22,187 bases of DNA from Escherichia coli (lineage in GTDB: Bacteria > Pseudomonadota > Gammaproteobacteria > Enterobacterales > Enterobacteriaceae): the NCBI RefSeq assembly GCF_003334255.1, contig NZ_QOWU01000067.1. One strand, given 5' to 3'. Every line of letters begins with the position of its first letter. The first letter of the stretch is position 1. The position numbers were made by a program, and so were the translations under genes. This document shows positions 2,448-22,187 of this stretch, piece by piece. The notes beneath the pieces are model-generated. The model had not been told where the DNA came from. It was given only the letters and a program-made list of their open reading frames with translations, and made no database searches.

Positions 2448-3908
2448 TTACAGCGCAGCCACACACTCGCGCGCACCGCGTTCGCACAGCTGCTGATATG
2501 CCGCCGTCACCGCGCCAACAAAGTCGGCATTCTGCGGCAGATCATCGGCAAAAATACCGCTCAGGCCTAGCAGCGCTTTCACGCGGTCTGCGCCCTGATA
2601 CTGCGCGTTAATCTTCTGGAACTCGGCCAGCATCGGGTCGACCACGTCAATGGCATTACCCTGCTCATCCACGCCCTGGGTGTAACGCATCCAGCCAGCC
2701 ACGCCCAGCGCCAGGTGACGCCAGCTGCCGCCGTTTTGCAGGTGCAGACGCACCGGGTCCAGCAGACGCTGCGGTAACTTCTGGCTGCCGTCCATCGCAA
2801 TCTGCCAGGTACGGTGACGCAGAGACGGGTTGCTGAAACGCTCGATCAGCAGCGTCGCATAGGCGTTCAGGTCCGTACCTTCCGGCATCGACAGCGTTGG
2901 CGCTTGTTCCTGCATCATCAGGGCAAAGGCCGCTTTGCGATAATCCGGGTTAGTCATGGTGTCGGCAATAGTTTCATAGCCGCCGAGGTAACCGAGGTAC
3001 GCCAGGAAAGAGTGGCTACCGTTCAGCATACGCAGCTTCATCATTTCGAACGGCACAACGTCTGCAACGAACTGTGCGCCCACTTTATCCCAGTCCGGGC
3101 GACCATTAACGAAATTATCTTCAATCACCCACTGACGGAACGGTTCGCAGGCAATGGCGCACGGGTCGTAAACGCCCAGCTGGTCAGCAATTTCCTGTAA
3201 GGTTTCTGGCGTCGCCGCCGGAACGATGCGGTCAACCATGGTGCACGGGAAGGTGACGTTCTCTCCAATCCATGCCGCTAGCTGCGGGTCACGCGCCTGA
3301 GCCAGCCCCAGTACCGCGACCTTCGCCACATGACCGTTTTCACGCACGTTATCGCAGGACATCACCGTAAATGCTTTCAGCCCTTTTTCACGACGCAGAC
3401 GCAAGGCTTCGACGATGTAACCAATCGCGGACTTCGGCGCAGTCGGGTTTTCCAGATCGTGCTTGATCAGCGGGTTATTGAGATCCAGTTGACCGCTTGC
3501 CGCATCAGCGCAGTAGCCTTTTTCCGTGACCGTCAGAGAGACAATCGCCGTTTGCGGACGCGCCATCGCGTTGAGAATACCTTCGCAGCCGTCGATTTCC
3601 GGGTGCAGCGCTTCTTTCATCGAACCGATAATTTTCAGCTCGGTGCTTTCCGCGCCTTTTTCCGCCACGGTGTACAGCAGTTGCTGTTTTTTCAGGTTTT
3701 CGATCAGCACGCGGTCGTTGCCTGGCATCAGGTTAACTTCGCAGATACCCCAGTCGCTGTCGGTGCTTTCCAGCAGATGATGGGTGTACAGCGCCTGGTG
3801 CGCACGGTGAAACGCCCCGCAACCGAGATGCACAATGCGTGATTCCAGACGAGAATGATCCCATGACGGGCGGGCAACCGGCAGATTGCTGTCAACAATA
3901 GTAGTCAT
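2448..3908 (-). CDS. uxuB: D-mannonate oxidoreductase (fructuronate reductase), UxuB (486 aa)
   Basis: Full-length ORF MTTIVDSNLPVARPSWDHSRL...; N-terminal Rossmann-type GCGAFHRAH region typical of the mannitol dehydrogenase family; ATG at 3908-3906; directly downstream of uxuA. Confidence 0.95.
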   Translation of the reverse strand: MTTIVDSNLPVARPSWDHSRLESRIVHLGCGAFHRAHQALYTHHLLESTDSDWGICEVNLMPGNDRVLIENLKKQQLLYTVAEKGAESTELKIIGSMKEALHPEIDGCEGILNAMARPQTAIVSLTVTEKGYCADAASGQLDLNNPLIKHDLENPTAPKSAIGYIVEALRLRREKGLKAFTVMSCDNVRENGHVAKVAVLGLAQARDPQLAAWIGENVTFPCTMVDRIVPAATPETLQEIADQLGVYDPCAIACEPFRQWVIEDNFVNGRPDWDKVGAQFVADVVPFEMMKLRMLNGSHSFLAYLGYLGGYETIADTMTNPDYRKAAFALMMQEQAPTLSMPEGTDLNAYATLLIERFSNPSLRHRTWQIAMDGSQKLPQRLLDPVRLHLQNGGSWRHLALGVAGWMRYTQGVDEQGNAIDVVDPMLAEFQKINAQYQGADRVKALLGLSGIFADDLPQNADFVGAVTAAYQQLCERGARECVAAL

Positions 3909-3988
3909 CGTAAACTCCAGAATCCGTCTTCAGAGAGTGACGGCAAGGAAGAAGGAACCGGCACGGCGCGCAGCCATGCCGGTGGATA

Positions 3989-5173
3989 TTAACGGCTAAA
4001 GAAAGCGCGCTGGATCGCCAGTTCGACACCGCGAACTTCGGCCAGGCCTTTCAGACGACCAATTGCGGAGTAACCTGGGTTGGTTTTCTTCTTCAGGTCG
4101 TCCAGCATCTGATGACCGTGGTCCGGACGCATCGGGATCAGGTCTTCTTTGCCTTCCGCTTTACGACGGTGTTCTTCTTCAACAATCGCTTTCACCACTT
4201 CGTACATATCAACGTCACCATTCAGGTGCGCCGCTTCGTGGAAGGTTTTCGGGTTATCTTCACGCATGGTGGAGCGCAGATGGGTGAAGTAAATACGCGG
4301 ACCGAACTGCTTGATCATATCAACCAGATCGTTGTCAGCACGCACGCCGTAGGAACCGGTGCACATGGTGAAACCGTTCGCCATGCTATTTACGGTATCA
4401 ACCATCCACTGCATATCTTCAATGGTAGAAACAATGCGCGGCAGGCCGAGGATTGGGCGCGGCGGATCGTCCGGGTGAACAGCCATACGCACGCCAACTT
4501 CTTCGGCAACCGGAATAATCGCCTTCAGGAAGACGGCAAAGTTTTCGCGCAGTTTGGCTTTGTCGATATCTTTGTACAGCTCCAGGTGCTTACGGAACTG
4601 GTCGAGGGTGTACCCTTCTTCCGCGCCCGGCAGACCGGCAATGATGTTACGGGTCAGACGCGCTTTGTCTTCGTCGCTCATAGTGGCGAAGCGTTCAGCT
4701 GCCTGAGCAATTTCTTCTTCGGTGTAATCCGCTTCCGCACCTGGGCGTTTCAGGATATGCATTTCGAATGCAGCGAATTCGATCTGGTCGAAGCGCAGAG
4801 CTTTGGAGCCGTCTGGCAGCACGTATTCGAGGTCAGTACGGGTCCAGTCGAGCACCGGCATGAAGTTGTAGCACACGGTGCGAATACCGCACTGCGCCAG
4901 GTTGCGCAGAGTCTGCTGATAGTTAGCGATCCACTGCTCATAGTTGCCAGTGTGGGTTTTGATATCTTCGTGAATTGGCACGCTTTCTACGACAGACCAC
5001 ACCAGGCCTGCATCTTCAACGATAGCCTTGCGTTTGAGGATCTCTTCTACGGACCATACTTCACCGTTCGGGATATGGTGCAAAGCGGTAACCACGCCAG
5101 TCGCGCCCGCCTGACGGACATCAGCTAAAGAAACCGGATCGTTTGGGCCGTACCAGCGCCAGGTCTGTTCCAT
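3989..5173 (-). CDS. uxuA: D-mannonate dehydratase, UxuA (394 aa)
   Basis: ORF 3989..5209 trimmed to the internal ATG at 5173 ([14 protein letters not shown]...), which is preceded by an AGAGGA Shine-Dalgarno on the minus strand; the longer N-terminal extension has no RBS. Confidence 0.93.
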
Positions 5174-5339
5174 GATTTTTCCTCTTTCACATAGTGGGTT
5201 CCACAGCAAAGAGACGCGGAACCCTGGAGTTGTTTAGGTATCCGGATGAACAACCAGACCGCAGCCGTGGCGTTGCATCGGATGAGATGGCGTATAAGTT
5301 CTACCTTTTGGTAAGACATGTCAACCCGAATTCTGAAAT

Positions 5340-5349
5340 TGGTTAACCA
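5340..5349. promoter_or_regulatory. Candidate UxuR/ExuR operator (TGGT-N2-ACCA palindrome) in the uxuA-gntP divergent region
   Basis: Perfect palindrome TGGTTAACCA embedded in AAATTGGTTAACCAC; FadR-subfamily GntR regulators bind TGGT..ACCA-type palindromes, and uxuAB and gntP are UxuR-regulated. Motif assignment is from memory, not a PWM scan. Confidence 0.45.
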
Positions 5350-5425
5350 CATCACAAGAATTTCACTCTCCTGGTTGTTGCTGCAAATTGCAGCAAAAGG
5401 TAATCGATGGTTATTGATCAGAGGA

Positions 5426-5441
5426 TGTGACATTCATCGCA
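5426..5441. promoter_or_regulatory. Candidate CRP binding site
   Basis: TGTGAcattcaTCGCA matches the CRP consensus TGTGA-N6-TCACA in 9 of 10 core positions; sits in the divergent uxuA/gntP promoter region, both of which are catabolite-controlled. Confidence 0.4.
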
Positions 5442-5444
5442 ACA

Positions 5445-5456
5445 ATGGTTGACCAA
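5445..5456. promoter_or_regulatory. Second candidate UxuR/ExuR operator (ATGGTTGACCAA)
   Basis: TGGTTGACCA has the same TGGT-N2-ACCA geometry as the site at 5340-5349; lies about 60 bp upstream of the gntP ATG. Confidence 0.4.
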
Positions 5457-5512
5457 TTTACATAACATGTCGCCCAAAATAACAACGGTTCAACCAGGTA
5501 AGGTAAAACGTT

Positions 5513-6856
5513 ATGCATGTGCTTAACATTCTCTGGGTGGTATTCGGCATTGGTCTGATGCTGGTACTGAATTTGAAGTTCAAAATCAATTCAATGGTGG
5601 CCTTGTTGGTGGCGGCGCTGTCCGTCGGGATGCTGGCGGGCATGGATTTGATGTCGCTGCTGCACACCATGAAAGCGGGCTTCGGCAACACGCTGGGGGA
5701 ACTGGCTATCATCGTGGTGTTCGGTGCGGTCATCGGTAAATTGATGGTCGACTCCGGCGCGGCTCACCAGATAGCGCATACGCTGCTGGCACGTCTCGGT
5801 CTGCGTTATGTACAGCTGTCGGTGATTATCATCGGCCTGATTTTCGGTCTGGCGATGTTCTATGAAGTGGCCTTTATCATGTTAGCACCGCTGGTTATTG
5901 TTATTGCCGCCGAAGCTAAAATTCCGTTCCTGAAACTGGCGATCCCGGCAGTAGCAGCTGCCACTACCGCACATTCACTGTTCCCACCGCAGCCGGGTCC
6001 GGTGGCGCTGGTGAATGCTTATGGCGCGGATATGGGGATGGTTTATATCTATGGCGTACTGGTGACGATCCCAAGTGTCATCTGCGCAGGTCTGATCCTG
6101 CCGAAGTTCCTCGGCAATCTTGAGCGCCCAACGCCATCATTCCTGAAAGCAGATCAACCGGTAGATATGAATAATCTGCCCTCTTTCGGCGTTTCGATTC
6201 TGGTGCCGTTGATCCCGGCGATCATTATGATCTCTACCACCATCGCCAATATCTGGCTGGTAAAAGATACCCCTGCGTGGGAAGTGGTTAACTTTATCGG
6301 TTCCTCGCCGATTGCAATGTTTATTGCGATGGTGGTTGCATTCGTACTCTTTGGCACCGCGCGCGGGCACGATATGCAGTGGGTAATGAACGCTTTTGAA
6401 AGCGCGGTGAAAAGCATTGCAATGGTGATTCTGATCATCGGTGCAGGTGGCGTGCTGAAGCAGACCATCATCGACACCGGCATCGGCGACACCATCGGCA
6501 TGCTGATGTCCCACGGCAATATCTCGCCCTACATCATGGCATGGCTGATCACCGTACTGATTCGTCTGGCGACGGGTCAGGGTGTGGTTTCAGCGATGAC
6601 CGCCGCCGGGATTATCAGTGCAGCAATCCTTGATCCAGCAACTGGTCAGCTGGTTGGCGTGAATCCGGCGCTGCTGGTACTGGCGACGGCTGCGGGTTCC
6701 AACACCCTCACCCACATTAACGATGCCTCATTCTGGTTGTTCAAAGGTTACTTTGACCTGTCAGTAAAAGACACGTTGAAAACCTGGGGTCTGCTGGAGC
6801 TGGTCAACTCCGTGGTTGGGCTGATTATTGTGCTGATTATTAGCATGGTAGCGTAA
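5513..6856 (+). CDS. gntP: GntP-family gluconate/fructuronate:H+ permease (447 aa)
   Basis: Full-length, highly hydrophobic multi-helix [26 protein letters not shown]...; ATG at 5513; divergent from uxuA and adjacent to fimH as in E. coli. Confidence 0.93.
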
Positions 6857-6866
6857 AAGAGCACCT

Positions 6867-6900
6867 GAGCCTGCCATTGGCAGGCTCTGTTCGGATTGTC
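6867..6900 (+). terminator. Probable gntP terminator hairpin
   Basis: GAGCCTGCC (6867-6875) / GGCAGGCTC (6879-6887) inverted repeat beginning 11 bp after the gntP stop, followed by a T-containing tract (tgttcggattgt). Confidence 0.5.
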
Positions 6901-6920
6901 GGTAAAGTGCGCTTTGTTTA

Positions 6921-6957
6921 TGCCAGATGCGACGCTGACGCGTCTTATCTGGCCTAC
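6921..6957. repeat. REP-like element
   Basis: TGCCAGATGCGACGCTGACGCGTCTTATCTGGCCTAC resembles the REP consensus (GCC.GATGCG.CG ... CTTATC.GGCCTAC); lies between the convergent gntP and fimH. Confidence 0.6.
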
Positions 6958-7028
6958 AAAGGGCTAACGTGCAGGTTTTAGCTTCAGGTAATATTGCGTA
7001 CCTGCATTAGCAATGCCCTGTGATTTCT

Positions 7029-7931
7029 TTATTGATAAACAAAAGTCACGCCAATAATCGATTGCACATTCCCTGCAGTCACCTGCCCTCCGGTACGTGC
7101 GTAATTTGCCGTTAATCCCAGACTTACCGCCGAAGTCCCTACTGCTCCTAACGATACCGTGTTATTCGCTGGAATAATCGTACCGTTGCGCGTCAACTGT
7201 ACGCCGACGCCCTGTGCAGGTGAAAACGACGCGGTATTGGTGAAAATCGAGTTGCCCGCATCTGCGGTTGTGCCGGAGAGGTAATACCCCAGGTTTTGGC
7301 TTTTCGCACAATAAACGGTAAGAGGAATCGGCACTGAACCAGGGTAGTCCGGCAGAGTAACGGTGACATCACGAGCAGAAACATCGCAGCCGCCAGTGGG
7401 CACCACCACATCATTATTGGCGTAAATATTCCACACAAACTGGAAATCATCGCTGTTATAGTTGTTGGTCTGTCGCAAAATAAGCACGGCAATTAATGAG
7501 CCAGCTTTAATCACCACCCCGCCCGCACTGCTCACAGGCGTCAAATAAAGCGCCACCGGCCACGGCTTATCCGTTCTCGAATTATAAACAACCCGCGGCG
7601 TTTCACTGGTGGTCGGAAATGGATAGCTACTGCCACTATATTTTACGGTCCCGGAAAAATTAGATAACACGCCGCCATAAGCCGAGCCTCGTTGCAGTGT
7701 GACATAATCTGTAATGGTTTCCGGGTAATCGTTATGGCAAAAGATTTGCGTCGAAAGATCCACGACCAGGTTTTGCCCCACATTCACGGCGGGCGCAAGG
7801 TTTACATAAACATTGGCGCTGCCACCGCCAATAGGGATAGCGGTGCCATTGGCGGTTTTACAGGCGAATGACCAGGCATTTACCGACCAGCCCATCAGCA
7901 GTATAGCAAACAGGTTAATAACTCGTTTCAT
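7029..7931 (-). CDS. fimH: Type 1 fimbrial tip adhesin FimH, mannose-specific (300 aa)
   Basis: ORF trimmed to the ATG at 7931 (MKRVINLFAILLMGWSVNAWSFACKTANGTAIPIGGG...); signal peptide followed by lectin and pilin domains; last gene of the fim operon. Confidence 0.95.
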   Translation of the reverse strand: MKRVINLFAILLMGWSVNAWSFACKTANGTAIPIGGGSANVYVNLAPAVNVGQNLVVDLSTQIFCHNDYPETITDYVTLQRGSAYGGVLSNFSGTVKYSGSSYPFPTTSETPRVVYNSRTDKPWPVALYLTPVSSAGGVVIKAGSLIAVLILRQTNNYNSDDFQFVWNIYANNDVVVPTGGCDVSARDVTVTLPDYPGSVPIPLTVYCAKSQNLGYYLSGTTADAGNSIFTNTASFSPAQGVGVQLTRNGTIIPANNTVSLGAVGTSAVSLGLTANYARTGGQVTAGNVQSIIGVTFVYQ

Positions 7932-7950
7932 TACAATCATCTCTTCGGCT

Positions 7951-8454
7951 TCAGCTGTAGGTATAGGTGATGCTAATCACTGCCTGAATGGTTCCCTGAG
8001 TGGCTCCGCCATTTACCGTCAATGCTCTGACCTGTAACGGGAAGTGCGCTGATTGTGAGGAATCATCCACCTGAACTGTTTTGGTTGCGCCACTATTCAA
8101 TGTGTTGCCACTGTCATCCTGTAGCTCTAACTGGATGTTTTGCGCGGTCCCCTGGTTTTTATAATATCCGGTACTGTCGGCTGCCCCGCTGAAGCTGGCA
8201 GTGACCCTCGACGTTCCCACCGGACAATTAGTCAACTCAAGCGCAACATCATGCCAGGCCGATGCCGCCCCGGCAGACATCAGACTGAAAGAATAAAGAT
8301 CGCCGAGATCTACCGTGGCATTGGTGGTGGAAACCGTGCACGGTTTGGCGACGACCTTACCGTTCACCGTGATGGTGACATCGGCTGCCTGTATCGTCGC
8401 ACTTGCGAGCGCCAATATTGCCGCCAATACATACCCACGTTTGCACCATTTCAT
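7951..8454 (-). CDS. fimG: Type 1 fimbrial minor subunit FimG (167 aa)
   Basis: ORF trimmed to the ATG at 8454 (MKWCKRGYVLAAILALASATIQAADVTITV...); pilin fold with signal peptide; between fimF and fimH. Confidence 0.93.
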   Translation of the reverse strand: MKWCKRGYVLAAILALASATIQAADVTITVNGKVVAKPCTVSTTNATVDLGDLYSFSLMSAGAASAWHDVALELTNCPVGTSRVTASFSGAADSTGYYKNQGTAQNIQLELQDDSGNTLNSGATKTVQVDDSSQSAHFPLQVRALTVNGGATQGTIQAVISITYTYS

Positions 8455-8466
8455 GAGCATCTCCAG

Positions 8467-8997
8467 TTACTGATATTCAAGAGTGAAGGTAGCCGTGGCA
8501 TTGATATGCCCCGCAGTGACAGGCACCTGTGTCGCCATTAGCCGGGCGTAAAAATTCAGCGTATTTGGTTTACCCGGCGTCAGGGTCGTCCACGAAATCG
8601 CGGACGATGGGGCATTAAGGGGTATCTGATTTTGTTGCTCATTCAGAAGCTGTATTCCCAGTCCCGCAGCCGCTGACACCGTATTTTCAAGTGCAAGCAG
8701 GTTGGCATTGTGGCTATCTGCAACACCGGTAAACCCAACTTTTACGGCAGAAACGGCATTACCACAGGGTGACAGCAAAATACGAAATGGAACGACAGGA
8801 GTCGTCGCGCCAATGTTGTTAAATTGCTTCGCCGCGTTTTCCATCAGATCAACAGTAAAATTGGTTGATTCAGCGGCCACACTACAGCCGTTATCTCTGA
8901 CATAGCCGCGGATAGTAATCGTGCTATCCGCAGCCAAAGCGTGACTTACCGCCAGCCACAAAAAAGCGCACAGAAGATAAAAAGGTTTGTTTCTCAT
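8467..8997 (-). CDS. fimF: Type 1 fimbrial minor subunit FimF (176 aa)
   Basis: [22 protein letters not shown]...; ATG at 8997 (the ORF track's first residue is a GTG at 9000); stop 6 bp before fimG. Confidence 0.93.
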
Positions 8998-9006
8998 CAC
9001 GCCCCC

Positions 9007-17974: not shown

Positions 17975-19081
17975 ATGAATAAAACAATAACGGCGCTTGC
18001 TATCATGATGGCTTCATTTGCCGCAAACGCGTCTGTATTACCGGAAACTCCTGTGCCATTTAAAAGTGGTACCGGAGCAATTGATAACGACACTGTCTAC
18101 ATTGGTTTAGGTAGCGCAGGTACGGCATGGTACAAGCTGGATACACAGGCCAAAGATAAAAAATGGACAGCGTTAGCTGCATTCCCTGGCGGACCAAGAG
18201 ATCAAGCAACCTCTGCATTTATTGATGGCAATCTGTATGTGTTTGGCGGCATTGGCAAAAACAGCGAGGGCTTGACTCAGGTATTTAATGATGTACACAA
18301 ATACAACCCCAAAACCAATAGCTGGGTTAAATTGATGTCGCACGCGCCGATGGGCATGGCGGGCCATGTGACTTTTGTACACAACGGCAAGGCTTATGTT
18401 ACTGGCGGTGTTAACCAGAATATCTTCAATGGCTATTTTGAAGATCTCAACGAGGCTGGAAAAGATTCAACCGCTATAGATAAAATCAACGCCCACTATT
18501 TTGACAAAAAAGCAGAAGATTATTTCTTCAATAAGTTTCTGTTGTCTTTTGATCCCTCAACACAGCAATGGAGTTACGCTGGCGAATCGCCCTGGTACGG
18601 AACGGCTGGTGCGGCGGTTGTGAATAAAGGTGATAAAACCTGGCTTATTAATGGCGAAGCCAAACCAGGATTGCGAACGGATGCCGTATTTGAACTTGAT
18701 TTCACCGGTAATAATTTAAAATGGAATAAGCTTGATCCCGTCTCATCACCAGATGGCGTCGCTGGCGGTTTTGCGGGGATAAGCAATGATTCTCTTATAT
18801 TTGCCGGAGGGGCCGGATTCAAAGGTTCACGAGAAAATTACCAGAACGGTAAGAACTATGCGCATGAAGGCCTGAAAAAATCATATAGCACTGATATTCA
18901 TCTTTGGCATAACGGGAAATGGGATAAATCGGGTGAATTATCGCAAGGTCGGGCCTACGGAGTATCATTGCCCTGGAATAATAGTTTATTAATTATTGGC
19001 GGTGAAACTGCAGGCGGCAAAGCGGTGACGGATTCAGTTTTAATTTCTGTGAAGGATAATAAAGTCACAGTACAAAACTAA
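17975..19081 (+). CDS. nanM: N-acetylneuraminate epimerase (mutarotase) NanM, periplasmic Kelch-repeat protein (368 aa)
   Basis: ORF 17867..19081 trimmed to the ATG at 17975 (MNKTITALAIMMASFAANASVLPE...), preceded by AGGAGA at 17961-17966; repeated Gly-Gly-containing Kelch-like blades (e.g. LYVFGGIG, AYVTGGVN, LLIIGGET). Confidence 0.9.
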   Translation: MNKTITALAIMMASFAANASVLPETPVPFKSGTGAIDNDTVYIGLGSAGTAWYKLDTQAKDKKWTALAAFPGGPRDQATSAFIDGNLYVFGGIGKNSEGLTQVFNDVHKYNPKTNSWVKLMSHAPMGMAGHVTFVHNGKAYVTGGVNQNIFNGYFEDLNEAGKDSTAIDKINAHYFDKKAEDYFFNKFLLSFDPSTQQWSYAGESPWYGTAGAAVVNKGDKTWLINGEAKPGLRTDAVFELDFTGNNLKWNKLDPVSSPDGVAGGFAGISNDSLIFAGGAGFKGSRENYQNGKNYAHEGLKKSYSTDIHLWHNGKWDKSGELSQGRAYGVSLPWNNSLLIIGGETAGGKAVTDSVLISVKDNKVTVQN

Positions 19082-19088
19082 CGCTTCA

Positions 19089-19108
19089 GGGCCCCGGTAA
19101 AGGGGCCC
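19089..19108 (+). other. GC-rich intercistronic hairpin between nanM and nanS
   Basis: GGGCCCC (19089-19095) / GGGGCCC (19102-19108) with a 6-nt loop, beginning 7 bp after the nanM stop; no clean U-tract follows, so it is more likely an attenuating or stabilising structure than a full terminator. Confidence 0.4.
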
Positions 19109-19145
19109 TGCTATCAATTTGTCATTTGTATTACGCGAAAATTAT

Positions 19146-20126
19146 ATGAACGCAATAATATCGCCCGATTATTACTATGTTCTTACCGTTGCTGGTCAGT
19201 CTAATGCCATGGCGTATGGCGAAGGACTGCCATTACCGGACAGGGAAGATGCGCCTCATTCCAGAATTAAACAATTAGCGAGATTTGCGCATACGCATCC
19301 CGGAGGCCCGCCATGTCACTTTAACGACATTATTCCACTGACTCACTGCCCACACGATGTTCAGGATATGCAGGGTTATCACCATCCTCTGGCAACGAAT
19401 CATCAAACACAGTACGGCACCGTTGGCCAGGCACTGCATATTGCACGGAAATTACTGCCCTTCATTCCTGATAATGCAGGGATTCTTATCGTTCCGTGTT
19501 GCCGTGGCGGATCGGCTTTTACCGCGGGCAGCGAAGGGACATATTCAGAACGGCACGGAGCCAGCCATGATGCTTGTCGTTGGGGAACGGATACTCCGCT
19601 GTACCAGGATTTAGTCAGCAGAACGCGAGCCGCACTGGCAAAAAATCCGCAGAACAAATTCCTCGGCGTATGCTGGATGCAAGGCGAATTTGACTTAATG
19701 ACCAGTGACTACGCGTCACACCCTCAACACTTTAATCATATGGTTGAAGCCTTTCGTAGGGATCTAAAACAATACCATTCTCAGCTTAATAATATTACTG
19801 ACGCGCCGTGGTTTTGCGGCGATACCACCTGGTACTGGAAAGAAAATTTCCCGCATTCGTATGAAGCTATTTATGGCAATTATCAAAATAATGTTTTAGC
19901 CAATATTATTTTCGTCGACTTCCAGCAACAAGGTGAAAGAGGACTGACGAACGCGCCTGATGAAGACCCGGACGATTTAAGCACGGGATATTACGGTTCA
20001 GCGTACCGGTCACCGGAGAACTGGACGACGGCACTGCGAAGCAGTCATTTCAGCACTGCAGCCCGTCGGGGGATTATTTCTGACAGATTTGTAGAAGCAA
20101 TTTTGCAGTTTTGGCGCGAAAGGTGA
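19146..20126 (+). CDS. nanS: 9-O-acetyl-N-acetylneuraminate esterase NanS (SGNH-hydrolase-like, 326 aa)
   Basis: ORF 19119..20126 trimmed to the ATG at 19146 (MNAIISPDYYYVLTVAGQSNAMAYGE...); the GQSNA motif is the SGNH-family catalytic serine block; third gene of the nanCMS operon. Confidence 0.88.
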   Translation: MNAIISPDYYYVLTVAGQSNAMAYGEGLPLPDREDAPHSRIKQLARFAHTHPGGPPCHFNDIIPLTHCPHDVQDMQGYHHPLATNHQTQYGTVGQALHIARKLLPFIPDNAGILIVPCCRGGSAFTAGSEGTYSERHGASHDACRWGTDTPLYQDLVSRTRAALAKNPQNKFLGVCWMQGEFDLMTSDYASHPQHFNHMVEAFRRDLKQYHSQLNNITDAPWFCGDTTWYWKENFPHSYEAIYGNYQNNVLANIIFVDFQQQGERGLTNAPDEDPDDLSTGYYGSAYRSPENWTTALRSSHFSTAARRGIISDRFVEAILQFWRER

Positions 20127-20620
20127 GCGGGGAGTTTATTCATGGGGGATGTCCTTGTTCGTTCTCAGAGTAGACAACAAAAAACAAATGAGATCAAGGT
20201 AATATCTCTTCACTTGCGGGCTCGAACAGCAGGCAATTGCCAATATAATAATCTGGCACAAGGGTGAAAAACGCGCACCGCATAAACCGTTGTTATTGCT
20301 TACAGATTAGCCGGATGCCTTAATAGACATCCGCGCCTTTTCGATTATGGCTCGGAAATCTACGAACATCTACACAGTTTACTGGAACGTTTTGGGCCAC
20401 AGCGTTCGCAGCACCGTCCTGATATGCCGTTCTGGCGATTATAAGTCGACGGATTCTGGCAAATAGACGATGATGATATGCTTAATGATGTTCAAAGAAA
20501 TTAGGCCATTATTATATTATTGCTTGCATTTTCTTTCATTCCTAAAAGCACCCGCCATTAATCCCAGGCGCATTATGCAAAGGAAAATGATTAGGTAAAC
20601 AATAAGATTTATAATAAGGA

Positions 20621-20653
20621 AAGGCGACTCGCAATAAAACGGAAAGTCGCCTT
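20621..20653 (-). terminator. Candidate terminator hairpin downstream of the yjhR-like ORF
   Basis: AAGGCGACT (20621-20629) / AGTCGCCTT (20645-20653) 9-bp stem with a 15-nt loop, about 55 bp past the ORF stop; on the minus strand it is followed by TCCTTATTAT. Confidence 0.4.
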
Positions 20654-20708
20654 AACATTGGTAAAATATGCCCTTTACTACTCCTGTATCATGAACGGCT
20701 CATCACAT

Positions 20709-21901
20709 TTAAAGCTGACGTTGATCCAGACTACCATATATTGCCTTTATTTCATTTTTTACGCCTTCACCACGGTACACCAAAGACGTATCGTATCGTT
20801 GATACTTATCTTCCCGTGTAGCACTGAACCAGTTAAAAGATCCGACACACAGCAGTTCTTCATCCTCAATCACAATTTTGCTGTGAACACGATTAACCAA
20901 TTTCGTAGCGATACCCATCTTATTGAGCTTTTCAACAGCATCATTCAGCAGATGTTGTTTCTCCTGACGCTTATCATCATCGACATGCGCTATATTGCAG
21001 TTTTTATCCGTCACCACGGTAATATCAATGCCCCGGGAACGGGCCAAAGCCATTGATGCCAGAAATCCCGTTTGCTCCACTTTTTGCCAGGATAACCAAG
21101 GGGAAATAATCGTTATTTTCTTTTGAGCTCCGGCAAGAGTCTTGTTCAAAAATTCATCATGCTGCTCCACACCATGCAGCGTTGAAATTTGTGTATGTGC
21201 GGAAATTAAATCCTGTCGTTTCTGAAACTCAAATTGCAACGCATTATTATCTGAAGAAAAGAGATATTTTGCCAATAACCCTCGCGGCGAAAATGCGGGC
21301 TGCATCTCGATAAGGTCCATATCGCCAAATACCAGAAAACTATCTTTAGCGCGTGAGACAGCAACATTGAGGATAGTGCTGTTGCTATCAAGAAACCTGC
21401 CATCTTCATGTTTTGAGTAGACAGGAGAAAAGAGAACAATCGCCCTTTCCGCCCCCTGCAAGGAGTGCACAGTCCCCACTGTCAGTAAACCCTGCTCGTC
21501 TTTGCCATTAATTTCCAGCTTACGCAATGACATTTTGATAGCATTAACCTGCGCCGAAAATGGCGTCACAACACCAACAACTTTGTACAGTGGTTCCCCG
21601 TAATGGCGCTCTATATCATCCTTATGTGCCACCAGCCATGCTGCTATTGTTTCAGCTTCAAGAGGGTTATGACGGCTCCCTCCATTTGGCTTCATGCCTC
21701 TACCATCAATATGTAAATATCCCATTGCGGGGAAAATCGTCCTTTTTCCATCCCTCTTTTAGGCTGCAACTTACCGTGATAGCAAAGTGAGTTACAGTAG
21801 TCGATGATGTTATTGAAACAGCGACGATGCTCATACAGATACATTCCGCGCTCGAACTTGGGATCATACTGGTAGTGAGAGTTGAACTGGGCTACCTGCA
21901 T
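20709..21901 (-). pseudogene. yjhR: yjhR-like remnant: C-terminal half of an Upf1-like SF1 helicase fused to a single-HKD PLD nuclease; 5' part frameshifted and truncated
   Basis: The 338-aa ORF (20709..21725) carries helicase RecA2 motifs ([49 protein letters not shown]) and a perfect PLD motif [18 protein letters not shown] (HxKx4Dx6GSxN, about 20832-20885). An upstream 69-aa ORF (21692..21901) in another frame looks like further helicase sequence. No Walker A / RecA1 core ORF is present up to the window end. Confidence 0.7.
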
Positions 21902-22187
21902 TACGCTGCCAGATGCTGCACTTTTTCCAGACCCATTTATTATCGAATACGGTGACCGCCTGAGCGGCCACCTTTAATCGTGGGCAGTTACACAGAATTA
22001 TTTACAGGGTCTTGCTGGGAGTTCTTACACTTGCTCGCGATATTCAATTGGCCATTGTCAACAAATGACGCAGGTTTTGATTGGTGATATCTATTTACGT
22101 CAGCAATGCGGGTAATGACTCCAACTTATTGATAGTGTTTTATGTTCAGATAATGCCCGATGACTTTGTCATGCAGCTCCACCGATT

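What the first reader, a model, noticed from the sequence alone, without database searches (positions are those of the whole stretch)
20127..20708. About 580 bp of ORF-free DNA between convergent nanS and the yjhR-like remnant
No reading frame of 60 codons or more, and no recognisable RNA gene or repeat, occupies this spacer, which is long for a convergent E. coli gene pair. It contains a 9-bp-stem hairpin (20621-20653). Given that the neighbouring yjhR-like gene is decaying, this may be remnant DNA of the same acquired element, or it may hide a small RNA.
Basis: seen in the sequence. Interest (0 to 1): 0.3.

Follow-up and report, generated by a model that had tools for sequence, protein, structure and literature searches.

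The report
Collapsed remains of two restriction-enzyme genes
The 582-bp "empty" spacer after nanS is the shrunken wreck of two anti-foreign-DNA restriction genes that are intact at this spot in other E. coli, and the leftover start of one still drives the small K-12 protein YthB; it is ordinary gene decay and already annotated in RefSeq.

Summary
The spacer is 20127-20708, contains no ORF of 60 aa or more, has no Rfam match, and carries a real 9-bp hairpin at 20621-20653. The ORF-free state is not unusual: 46% of random sequences of the same composition also lack such an ORF.

The spacer is not anonymous DNA. It is colinear with a 1,974-bp segment in E. coli strain Ch1, laid out as nanS> <HNH endonuclease, phosphorothioate-DNA restriction endonuclease> <intact yjhR. 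Three deletions separate the two: about 641 bp, 73 bp and 667 bp.

What remains:
- **HNH gene start (20129-20225, minus strand):** the start codon, ribosome-binding site and upstream region. The start now reads into antisense nanS and yields the validated 32-aa protein YthB.
- **PT-restriction gene (20227-20471):** codons 8-89 only, with no start codon, a 1-bp frameshift, a TAA stop and no nuclease domain.
- **Native 3' flank of yjhR (20473-20708):** includes the hairpin and a 118-bp relic of a DUF4942 gene's upstream region.

About 32% of complete E. coli genomes, including K-12, BL21 and ST131, carry this collapsed form. About 31% carry at least 80% of the restriction gene; it is annotated intact in every example opened, including E. 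coli W, where it is probably EcoWI. NCBI's PGAP annotation pipeline already annotates both the pseudogene and ythB. The only new point is where YthB came from.

The parts
19146..20126 (+). nanS (sialate O-acetylesterase), intact. Left boundary of the spacer; context only.
   Evidence: The ORF is listed. It is 98.2-98.4% identical to nanS in strains that carry the intact restriction genes. It is annotated full-length in L002.
20045..20143 (-). ythB, a 32-aa validated small protein (MNKLPAHLSRQNCKIASTNLSEIIPRRAAVLK). Codons 1-5 come from the start of the lost HNH endonuclease gene. Codons 6-32 are antisense to the last codons of nanS.
   Evidence: The translation is identical to K-12 b4802. It is annotated on identical DNA in L001. 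The intact HNH protein starts MNKLPDHLPRRY. In intact strains a 29-aa ORF, MNAHLSRQNRKIAST..., occupies the same antisense-nanS frame. Expression is reported in 10.1101/511675, PMC12529367 and PMC12288877.
20127..20130 (.). Junction of deletion 1, about 641 bp, which removed the HNH endonuclease gene from codon 6 to its stop. It is flanked in intact strains by an imperfect 17-bp direct repeat, GGCGCGAAAGGTGAGCG / GCCGCGGAAGATGGTCG (12 of 17 identical, shared CG at the crossover).
   Evidence: Window 20093-20127 matches L008 4990-5024, and window 20128 onward matches L008 5666 onward.
20144..20225 (-). Relic of the divergent promoter and 5'-UTR region between the HNH gene and the PT-restriction gene. 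It carries the Shine-Dalgarno sequence AAGGA, 7 nt before the ythB ATG, and presumably the ythB promoter.
   Evidence: It is 82-94% identical to L008 5682-5764, with pairwise E of 1e-33. The Shine-Dalgarno sequence is read directly. The promoter position is inferred; candidates are and the full report.
20226..20232 (.). Junction of deletion 2, 73 bp, between perfect 7-bp direct repeats ACAGCAG. It removed the ribosome-binding site, the ATG and the first 7 codons of the PT-restriction gene.
20227..20471 (+). Pseudogene remnant of a phosphorothioated-DNA-binding (SBD-HNH) restriction endonuclease, codons 8-89 of 290. There is a 1-bp deletion between 20300 and 20301 (codon 32), a CAA>TAA nonsense codon at 20442-20444 (codon 80), and no start codon.
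   Evidence: NCBIfam NF045808 matches at E 1.6e-31, profile positions 4-89. It is about 90% identical at DNA level to intact genes in L003, L005, L008 and L010. PGAP annotates 20236-20441 as this pseudogene on identical DNA.
20469..20475 (.). Junction of deletion 3, 667 bp, with ATG microhomology. It removed codons 90-291 (including the whole HNH nuclease domain) plus 62 bp downstream of the stop.
   Evidence: Window 20472 matches L008 6085, and window 20473 matches L008 6753.
20473..20708 (-). Native 3' flank of yjhR, non-coding and 36-40% GC.
   Evidence: It is colinear with L008 6753-7000, directly downstream of an intact yjhR, in blocks of 79-88% identity with a 14-bp indel. It is at least 99% identical in 1,706 genomes, with one place per genome. 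IS1 and IS5 insertions here are tolerated in other strains.
20521..20638 (-). Relic of the start codon (ATGCAA at 20529-20524) and upstream region of a DUF4942-family gene.
   Evidence: It is 74% identical over 121 bp to L005 6001-6120, where it lies at the start of an intact DUF4942 gene. E is 4e-10 in the database search and 2e-16 pairwise. 227 genomes give 60-80% hits.
20621..20653 (-). Hairpin with a 9-bp stem and 15-nt loop, 56 nt downstream of the yjhR stop. It may be a vestigial, non-canonical terminator of yjhR.
   Evidence: Fold z = -4.1. It is not terminator-like by the consensus scan. In L008 one arm has a C>T change, which gives A·C in the minus-strand RNA and G·U in the plus-strand RNA, and z drops to -2.0.
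20709..21949 (-). yjhR pseudogene: the C-terminal third of a Mokosh type II (MkoC-like) helicase plus PLD nuclease. Right boundary of the spacer; context only.
   Evidence: PADLOC MkoC matches at E 3.8e-139, profile positions 812-1135 of 1136. PGAP annotates it as 'helicase YjhR, frameshifted, missing N-terminus'. An intact 1171-aa allele exists in L008.

Best explanation
The spacer is the collapsed remnant of a small defence-gene cassette sitting directly after nanS, at the edge of a variable region.

**Ancestral layout.** Still present in strain Ch1, it reads: nanS>, then 4 bp (read from the coordinates), then <HNH endonuclease (216 aa), a 136-bp divergent control region, the phosphorothioate-DNA-dependent SBD-HNH restriction endonuclease> (290 aa, EcoWI-like), about 310 bp, then <yjhR (Mokosh-type helicase-nuclease).

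**What happened in this lineage (shared with K-12, BL21 and ST131).** Three short-homology deletions of about 641, 73 and 667 bp, one 1-bp frameshift and one nonsense mutation destroyed both endonuclease genes. 1,974 bp shrank to 582 bp.

**What the DNA does now.**
- It encodes no restriction activity. The PT-restriction remnant has no start codon, is out of frame, and lacks the entire HNH nuclease domain.
- The translation start of the lost HNH gene survived. It is now fused in frame to 27 open codons on the antisense strand of nanS.
- This fusion is the 32-aa protein YthB. Its transcript runs convergently into nanS.
- The right-hand 236 bp are the old 3' flank of yjhR, with a hairpin and a scrap of another lost gene's upstream region. 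They are most likely inert.

**Shown:** the homology, colinearity, lesions and junctions; YthB's identity with K-12 b4802; published evidence of YthB expression.

**Inferred:** the direction of change (loss here rather than gain elsewhere); that the surviving promoter is the old HNH-gene promoter; that YthB is a by-product with no selected function.
For: **Annotation on identical or near-identical DNA.**
- PGAP annotates ythB and a frameshifted, C-terminally truncated 'phosphorothioated DNA-binding restriction endonuclease' pseudogene on DNA identical to the window.

**Intact versions at the same locus.**
- Intact 873-bp genes lie after nanS in L003, L005, L008 and E. coli W.
- In L008 the endonuclease pair sits directly beside an intact 3,516-bp yjhR.

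**Colinearity and junctions.**
- The window is colinear with L008 in four blocks: 19000-20129, 20115-20232, 20226-20472 and 20473-21933. The gaps between blocks are about 641, 73 and 667 bp.
- The junctions show an imperfect 17-bp repeat, a perfect 7-bp ACAGCAG repeat and ATG microhomology.

**Family assignment.**
- The intact protein scores 436 bits on NF045808, against a cutoff of 180.
- The remnant scores 109.5 bits (E 1.6e-31) on profile positions 4-89 only.
- The N-terminal domain matches the ScoMcrA sulfur-binding domain, PDB 5zmo. The C-terminal domain matches Pfam HNH_2.

**Lesions.** Codon 32 has a 1-bp deletion and codon 80 is TAA. Across the 82 retained codons there are 12 nonsynonymous and 8 synonymous changes.

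**YthB.**
- Its ATG aligns with the annotated ATG of the HNH gene (MNKLP|AHLSR... against MNKLPDHLPRRY...).
- The upstream 82 bp are homologous to the divergent control region.
- YthB was detected by SPA tag (10.1101/511675) and by mass spectrometry (PMC12529367). ythB-nanS is listed as a convergent excludon from RNA-seq (PMC12288877).

**Population frequencies.**
- 1,729 of 5,426 genomes carry the collapsed form.
- 1,707 hold at least 80% of the PT-restriction gene.
- 1,239 hold at least 80% of the HNH gene.
- Only 13 hold at least 80% of this yjhR allele.

**Tolerance of disruption.** IS1 and IS5 insertions occur inside the spacer in other strains.
Against: - The remnant blocks are only 84-90% identical to the intact alleles, while nanS is 98% identical. 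No sampled genome is therefore the direct ancestor, and the exact order and size of the deletion events is a reconstruction.
- The 17-bp repeat at junction 1 is imperfect (12 of 17) and could be coincidence.
- No transcription start site was mapped here. That the HNH gene's promoter survives is inferred from YthB being expressed.
- The collapsed haplotype is very well conserved: at least 99% identity for the right-hand 236 bp in 1,706 genomes. This could reflect purifying selection rather than recent common descent or recombination.
- That YthB has no function is not shown.
Confidence: 0.9

Rival explanations
1. The spacer is a functional regulatory unit. Either an unannotated small RNA or the YthB/antisense transcript is selected to control nanS (nanCMS) expression through convergent transcription, as an excludon. 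Conservation of the spacer would then reflect that function.
For: ythB-nanS is listed among convergent excludons from RNA-seq coverage (PMC12288877). YthB is translated at detectable levels. The collapsed haplotype is at least 99% identical across many genomes. A stable hairpin is present.
Against: There is no Rfam family at E<=1. About two thirds of E. coli genomes lack this form. IS1 and IS5 insertions and larger deletions of the spacer occur in natural strains. The ythB start region is explained by descent from the HNH gene start. YthB residues 6-32 are dictated by nanS coding sequence on the other strand. No phenotype is reported in the papers found.
Confidence: 0.07
2. The direction of change is the reverse. 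The short form is ancestral, and the HNH and PT-restriction genes were inserted into it in other strains.
For: Defence genes are commonly gained by horizontal transfer. The remnant blocks differ by 10-16% from the intact alleles, so no direct ancestor has been sampled.
Against: The window holds 82 in-frame-alignable codons of a 290-codon family protein (NF045808 positions 4-89). They carry a frameshift and a nonsense codon, and lack both a start codon and the nuclease domain. It also holds the first 5 codons, the ribosome-binding site and the upstream region of the HNH gene. Insertions cannot create such fragments; only truncation of complete genes can. E. coli W shows an independent, different truncation of the HNH gene, so decay recurs at this locus.
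Confidence: 0.02
3. The right-hand third (20473-20708) is a working 3' UTR, and the hairpin at 20621-20653 is a functional transcription terminator for yjhR, or a bidirectional one protecting yjhR and nanS from read-through.
For: The hairpin lies 56 nt after the yjhR stop, is much more stable than shuffled sequence (z -4.1), and is followed on the minus strand by a U-rich stretch (UUCCUUAUUAU). The segment is the native flank of intact yjhR in L008.
Against: It fails the terminator consensus: 15-nt loop and no T-run. In the one strain examined with intact yjhR, the stem has an A·C mismatch in the minus-strand RNA and z is only -2.0. In the window yjhR is a 5'-truncated, frameshifted pseudogene, so any terminator would be vestigial. 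Homology with the L005 variant of the island stops inside the hairpin loop, and no partner arm follows there.
Confidence: 0.25

Closest known systems
EcoWI and other SBD-HNH phosphorothioate-dependent restriction endonucleases (NCBIfam NF045808; ScoMcrA and SprMcrA sulfur-binding domain, PDB 5zmo and 7cc9)
   Same: The remnant aligns to positions 4-89 of the family profile (E 1.6e-31). It is about 90% identical at DNA level to intact 290-aa genes at the same locus. The intact E. coli W gene at this locus encodes a 33.3-kDa protein; EcoWI is reported as 33.4 kDa (PMC7461809). The N-terminal domain matches the ScoMcrA sulfur-binding domain.
   Different: Only codons 8-89 survive. There is no start codon, a frameshift, a stop codon and no HNH nuclease domain, so it cannot act as an enzyme. 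That the E. coli W gene is EcoWI rests on the enzyme-naming convention and the mass match; no sequence was available in the paper or its supplement.
YthB (b4802), an E. coli K-12 small protein found by initiation-site ribosome profiling (Weaver et al., 10.1101/511675)
   Same: The 32-aa sequence and the position antisense to the nanS 3' end are identical.
   Different: Nothing differs; it is the same gene. What is added here is its origin. Its first 5 codons, ribosome-binding site and upstream DNA descend from a deleted HNH endonuclease gene. None of the three E. coli papers opened for ythB touches on its origin where it is named; one search listed eight papers holding the term.
Decayed defence genes in variable E. 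coli regions, such as the neighbouring yjhR (Mokosh type II MkoC remnant)
   Same: It lies in the same variable region beside nanS and shows the same mode of decay: truncation, frameshift and IS traffic. Other strains carry McrBC, type I R-M or a JetD-domain (Wadjet-associated) gene in the same slot.
   Different: The decay here is more advanced. Two genes are reduced to 14 and 245 bp of coding sequence, so the region looks intergenic.
Rho-independent terminators and 3'-UTR-derived sRNAs
   Same: A stable GC-rich stem lies shortly after a stop codon.
   Different: The loop is 15 nt, there is no U-tract, there is no Rfam match, and the upstream gene is dead.

Membership tests
NF045808 phosphorothioated DNA-binding restriction endonuclease (SBD-HNH, EcoWI-like) | N-terminal sulfur-binding domain homologous to the family profile | tested here: met
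   The repaired remnant translation matches profile positions 4-89 at E 1.6e-31, 109.5 bits. The intact ortholog matches the ScoMcrA SBD, PDB 5zmo. The HK (codons 26-27) and MP (codons 74-75) positions are retained but separated by the frameshift.
NF045808 phosphorothioated DNA-binding restriction endonuclease (SBD-HNH, EcoWI-like) | Whole-protein score above the curated cutoff of 180 bits | tested here: not met
   The remnant scores 109.5 bits. The intact gene from L003 scores 436.3 bits.
NF045808 phosphorothioated DNA-binding restriction endonuclease (SBD-HNH, EcoWI-like) | C-terminal HNH nuclease domain | tested here: not met
   In the intact protein HNH_2 spans residues 182-236. The window's homology stops at codon 89 or 90.
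NF045808 phosphorothioated DNA-binding restriction endonuclease (SBD-HNH, EcoWI-like) | Uninterrupted ORF with a start codon | tested here: not met
   The 73-bp deletion removes the ribosome-binding site, the ATG and codons 1-7. There is a 1-bp deletion in codon 32 and TAA at codon 80. No ORF is listed in this frame.
NF045808 phosphorothioated DNA-binding restriction endonuclease (SBD-HNH, EcoWI-like) | Cleavage of phosphorothioate-modified DNA | not testable with these tools
   This is a biochemical property, shown for EcoWI in PMC7461809. It is not expected of the remnant.
YthB small protein (K-12 b4802) | Identical amino-acid sequence and genomic position antisense to the nanS 3' end | tested here: met
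   Window 20045-20143 (-) and K-12 L004 6598-6696 both translate to MNKLPAHLSRQNCKIASTNLSEIIPRRAAVLK.
Intrinsic (Rho-independent) terminator | GC-rich stem, loop of 3-8 nt, followed by a U-tract | tested here: not met
   The stem qualifies: 9 bp with 5 GC pairs, z -4.1. The loop is 15 nt and no T-run follows. The scan found 0 terminator-like sites in 19950-20850.
Known RNA families (Rfam 15) | Covariance-model match | tested here: not met
   There are no matches at E<=1 in 19900-20900 and none at gathering score in the whole window.
Mokosh type II MkoC (the neighbouring yjhR, context) | Helicase plus PLD nuclease protein matching the MkoC profile over its full length | tested here: inconclusive
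   The 338-aa ORF matches MkoC profile positions 812-1135 of 1136 at E 3.8e-139. Only the C-terminal third is present in the window. A full 1171-aa allele exists in L008.

The most novel reading that the evidence does not exclude
YthB, an experimentally validated E. coli K-12 small protein, arose recently by deletion. A 641-bp deletion fused the promoter, ribosome-binding site and first five codons of a now-lost HNH restriction endonuclease gene to 27 stop-free codons on the antisense strand of nanS. If so, it would be a dated, mechanistically explicit case of a small protein created as a by-product of defence-gene decay. It would caution against assuming that antisense-encoded small proteins are functionally related to the gene they overlap.
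Probability: 0.8. Interest if true: 0.35.

Novelty: already known. Interest (0 to 1): 0.18.

Why it matters
The practical value is clean-up.
- The curated MG1655 record shows this interval as empty apart from ythB. PGAP already marks the restriction-endonuclease pseudogene.
- The reconstruction accounts for every part of the 582 bp and shows there is no hidden sRNA or new element to pursue.

Two modest points go beyond the annotation:
- The slot after nanS is a defence-gene site in E. coli. It holds an EcoWI-like PT-dependent restriction enzyme, an HNH endonuclease and Mokosh/yjhR, with McrBC, type I R-M or a JetD-domain (Wadjet-associated) gene in other strains. Laboratory strains K-12 and BL21 carry only the wreck. 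This is consistent with their acceptance of dnd-modified DNA, which EcoWI-expressing cells restrict (PMC7461809).
- YthB has a concrete evolutionary origin, and it suggests YthB is an accident of decay rather than a designed partner of nanS.

Tried and rejected
- **Known RNA families.** Rfam at a permissive E-value on the spacer and at gathering score on the whole window found nothing. The sRNA reading was dropped.
- **Terminator.** The consensus scan found none, so the hairpin cannot be called a canonical terminator.
- **Covariation for the hairpin.** L008 has a single one-sided change. In L005 the homology ends inside the loop and no partner arm follows. No support was obtained.
- **Dispersed repeat (REP-, ERIC- or IS-like).** The spacer occurs once per genome, and internal repeats are short chance matches.
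- **Plasmid relatives of the yjhR flank.** Distant yjhR homologues at about 69% identity align only from the stop codon inward. They say nothing about the flank.
- **Confirming that the E. coli W gene is EcoWI.** Neither the main text nor the held supplement gives a sequence or accession. Only the locus, the name and the predicted mass agree.
- **Locating the ythB promoter by consensus.** The only minus-strand hit upstream of ythB is TTTTCA-17-TATATT at 20270-20242, inside the PT-restriction remnant. By eye there is also TTGATC-17-TCTACT at 20197-20169 inside the retained divergent region. Neither can be confirmed without transcription-start data.
- **ORF-free status as a signal.** Rejected, because 46% of random sequences of the same composition are equally ORF-free.

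Full report
**Observation.** The nanS ORF ends with TGA at 20124-20126. The yjhR-remnant ORF on the minus strand ends with its stop at 20709-20711. The spacer is therefore 20127-20708, 582 bp, 41.8% GC.

No ORF of 60 aa or more lies within it; the largest are 41-42 aa. A 132-aa TTG ORF begins at 20658, but it is the antisense frame of yjhR. The ORF-free state is not informative, because 46% of 2,000 random sequences of the same first-order composition also lack such an ORF.

Rfam gives nothing at E<=1 for 19900-20900, and nothing at gathering score for the whole window.

The hairpin AAGGCGACT-15 nt-AGTCGCCTT at 20621-20653 is real and much more stable than shuffles (z -4.1 on the minus strand, -3.45 on the plus strand). 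It does not fit an intrinsic terminator, since it has a 15-nt loop and no T-run.

**What is annotated elsewhere.** A megablast of the spacer against 5,426 complete E. coli genomes finds it in 3,409. In 1,729 of these it covers at least 80% of the length at about 99-100% identity, including K-12, BL21 and ST131 strains. The rest match only query 100-346, at about 90% identity.

On DNA identical to the window (strain G1/2, L001), PGAP annotates two features inside the "empty" interval:
- ythB, at window 20045-20143 on the minus strand.
- A frameshifted, C-terminally truncated "phosphorothioated DNA-binding restriction endonuclease" pseudogene, at window 20236-20441 on the plus strand.

The curated MG1655 record lists only ythB, b4802. 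The window's ythB translation is identical to K-12's.

**Intact versions of the locus.** In O169:H41 strain Res13 (L003), strain 144 (L005), strain Ch1 (L008) and E. coli W (L010), an intact 873-bp gene for a 290-aa PT-DNA restriction endonuclease lies after nanS. In L003, L005 and L008 an intact 651-bp HNH endonuclease gene is transcribed divergently from it and converges on nanS.

Strain Ch1 is the most informative. Its layout is nanS>, <HNH (5031-5681), PT-restriction gene> (5818-6690), 310 bp, then <yjhR intact (7001-10516, 1171 aa).

Family evidence for the intact protein:
- It scores 436 bits on NCBIfam NF045808, against a cutoff of 180.
- Its N-terminus matches the ScoMcrA sulfur-binding domain, PDB 5zmo.
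- Its C-terminus matches Pfam HNH_2.

The E. coli W protein has a calculated mass of 33.3 kDa. EcoWI, the characterised E. coli PT-dependent SBD-HNH enzyme, is reported as 33.4 kDa and restricts dnd-modified plasmids in vivo (PMC7461809). Equating the two rests on the name and the mass. No sequence was available to test it.

**Reconstruction.** Pairwise blastn and a global alignment show the window is colinear with L008 in four blocks.

| Window | L008 | Identity |
|---|---|---|
| 19000-20129 | 3897-5026 | 98.2% |
| 20115-20232 | 5653-5771 | 85.7% |
| 20226-20472 | 5838-6085 | 90.3% |
| 20473-21933 | 6753-8226 | 90.2% |

The three gaps between blocks are deletions relative to L008:
- **Deletion 1, about 641 bp.** It removes the HNH gene from codon 6 to its stop. 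The flanks in L008 carry an imperfect 17-bp direct repeat, GGCGCGAAAGGTGAGCG and GCCGCGGAAGATGGTCG, sharing CG at the crossover.
- **Deletion 2, 73 bp.** It lies between perfect ACAGCAG repeats. It removes the ribosome-binding site, the ATG and 7 codons of the PT-restriction gene.
- **Deletion 3, 667 bp.** It has ATG microhomology. It removes codons 90-291 and 62 bp beyond the stop.

A codon-level alignment of the surviving 82 codons shows a 1-bp deletion in codon 32 (between 20300 and 20301) and CAA>TAA at codon 80 (20442-20444). There are 12 nonsynonymous and 8 synonymous substitutions. The repaired translation still matches NF045808 positions 4-89 at E 1.6e-31.

Loss here, rather than gain elsewhere, is the only reading that produces internal fragments of complete family genes. 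E. coli W shows an independent, different truncation of the HNH gene.

**Origin of YthB.** The ythB ATG (20143-20141, minus strand) aligns exactly with the annotated ATG of the HNH gene, L008 5681. The HNH protein begins MNKLPDHLPRRY, and YthB begins MNKLPAHLSRQN.

The 82 bp upstream (20144-20225) are 82-94% identical to the divergent control region of the intact cassette. An AAGGA Shine-Dalgarno sequence lies 7 nt before the ATG (read).

YthB residues 6-32 are the antisense of the last nanS codons. In intact strains the same frame is an open 29-aa ORF, MNAHLSRQNRKIAST..., whose ATG overlaps the HNH stop as TAATG.

YthB is therefore a fusion created by deletion 1. Evidence that it is made:
- It was detected as a chromosomally SPA-tagged protein (10.1101/511675).
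- It was detected by mass spectrometry (PMC12529367).
- ythB-nanS appears in a list of convergent excludons from RNA-seq (PMC12288877).

Something in 20144 and upstream must therefore act as a promoter, but which sequence does so is not established. The scan offers TTTTCA-17-TATATT at 20270-20242. By eye, TTGATC-17-TCTACT lies at 20197-20169.

**The right-hand 236 bp.** Window 20473-20708 aligns with the DNA directly downstream of intact yjhR in L008, in blocks of 79-88% identity with a 14-bp indel. It is the native yjhR 3' flank.

Within it, 20521-20638 is 74% identical to the start codon and upstream region of an intact DUF4942 gene in strain 144. The database E-value is 4e-10, and 227 genomes give such hits. 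The ATGCAA start is retained at 20529-20524 on the minus strand and is followed by a stop after 5 codons. This looks like a fourth, older relic, and it is also truncated in L008.

In L005 the homology ends inside the hairpin loop and no partner arm follows. In L008 one arm carries a C>T change, and the fold z-score falls to -2.0. The hairpin may be a vestigial yjhR terminator, but support is weak.

IS1 (at 20527, with loss of everything up to the window's own IS1 end) and IS5 (near 20595) are inserted in this segment in other strains. That is consistent with dispensable DNA.

**Population picture.** Counts are out of 5,426 complete E. coli genomes.

| Form | Genomes |
|---|---|
| Collapsed spacer | 1,729 |
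| At least 80% of the PT-restriction gene | 1,707 |
| At least 80% of the HNH gene | 1,239 |
| At least 80% of this yjhR allele | 13 |

In other strains the slot after the PT-restriction gene holds McrBC plus a type I R-M system, or a JetD-domain (Wadjet-associated) gene. The site after nanS is thus a variable defence-gene region.

The neighbouring yjhR remnant matches PADLOC MkoC (Mokosh type II) at E 3.8e-139. This assignment is already in the literature (10.1101/2022.12.12.520048).

**Verdict.** The content is ordinary gene decay and is already captured by RefSeq/PGAP annotation.

The spacer contains no new kind of element. The one point not found in the papers searched is that YthB is a deletion-born fusion using the start of a lost HNH endonuclease gene. 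I put that at about 0.8 probability and modest interest.

Noticed in passing
window 20709-21949 (-): The yjhR pseudogene is the C-terminal third of a Mokosh type II (MkoC-like) helicase plus PLD-nuclease defence protein (PADLOC E 3.8e-139). An intact 1171-aa allele was found in only 13 of 5,426 genomes, for example strain Ch1. The Mokosh assignment is already published (10.1101/2022.12.12.520048).
   Followed up: partly
window 22111-22187: The last 77 bp of the window are the terminal inverted-repeat end of an IS1 element (100% match to L006 5823-5747). K-12 and strain G1/2 match the window only up to 22110.
   Followed up: partly
window 19146-20126 (nanS); L001, L003, L007, L008, L010: PGAP labels nanS 'incomplete, missing C-terminus' in every record opened where ythB or the 29-aa antisense ORF is annotated. 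Yet the ORF is intact in the window, whose DNA is identical to L001. nanS is called full-length in records without that small ORF (L002, L006). This looks like an annotation artefact of overlap handling.
   Followed up: partly
L003 3105-3194 (-); equivalent to window 20045-20129: In strains with the intact HNH gene, a 29-aa ORF (MNAHLSRQNRKIASTNLSEIIPRRAAALK) antisense to the nanS 3' end starts in a TAATG overlap with the HNH stop codon. That arrangement is typical of translational coupling. Whether it is translated is unknown.
   Followed up: no
window 20521-20638; L005 6001-6120: A 118-bp stretch of the yjhR 3' flank is 74% identical to the start codon and upstream region of a DUF4942 gene that lies next to McrBC and a type I R-M system in strain 144. 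This suggests an older, now lost, DUF4942 gene beside yjhR, or a shared junction module between island variants.
   Followed up: partly
L010 (E. coli W) 27974-29139: E. coli W keeps an intact PT-DNA restriction gene (33.3 kDa, probably EcoWI) at this locus. It has independently lost the 5' part of the neighbouring HNH gene, of which only a 105-bp C-terminal remnant is left.
   Followed up: partly
L006 5056-5823 (IS1 at window position 20527); L007 about 4127-5317 (IS5 at window about 20595): Other strains carry IS1 or IS5 insertions inside the spacer. The IS1 case is accompanied by deletion of yjhR and much of the adjacent island.
   Followed up: partly
L009 7000-12542: A 70%-identical yjhR/MkoC paralogue, intact at 3,516 bp, sits in a different defence island next to tRNA-Leu in strain B1S11. 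It lies beside DUF1156, PLD-like and DUF3780 anti-phage genes.
   Followed up: no
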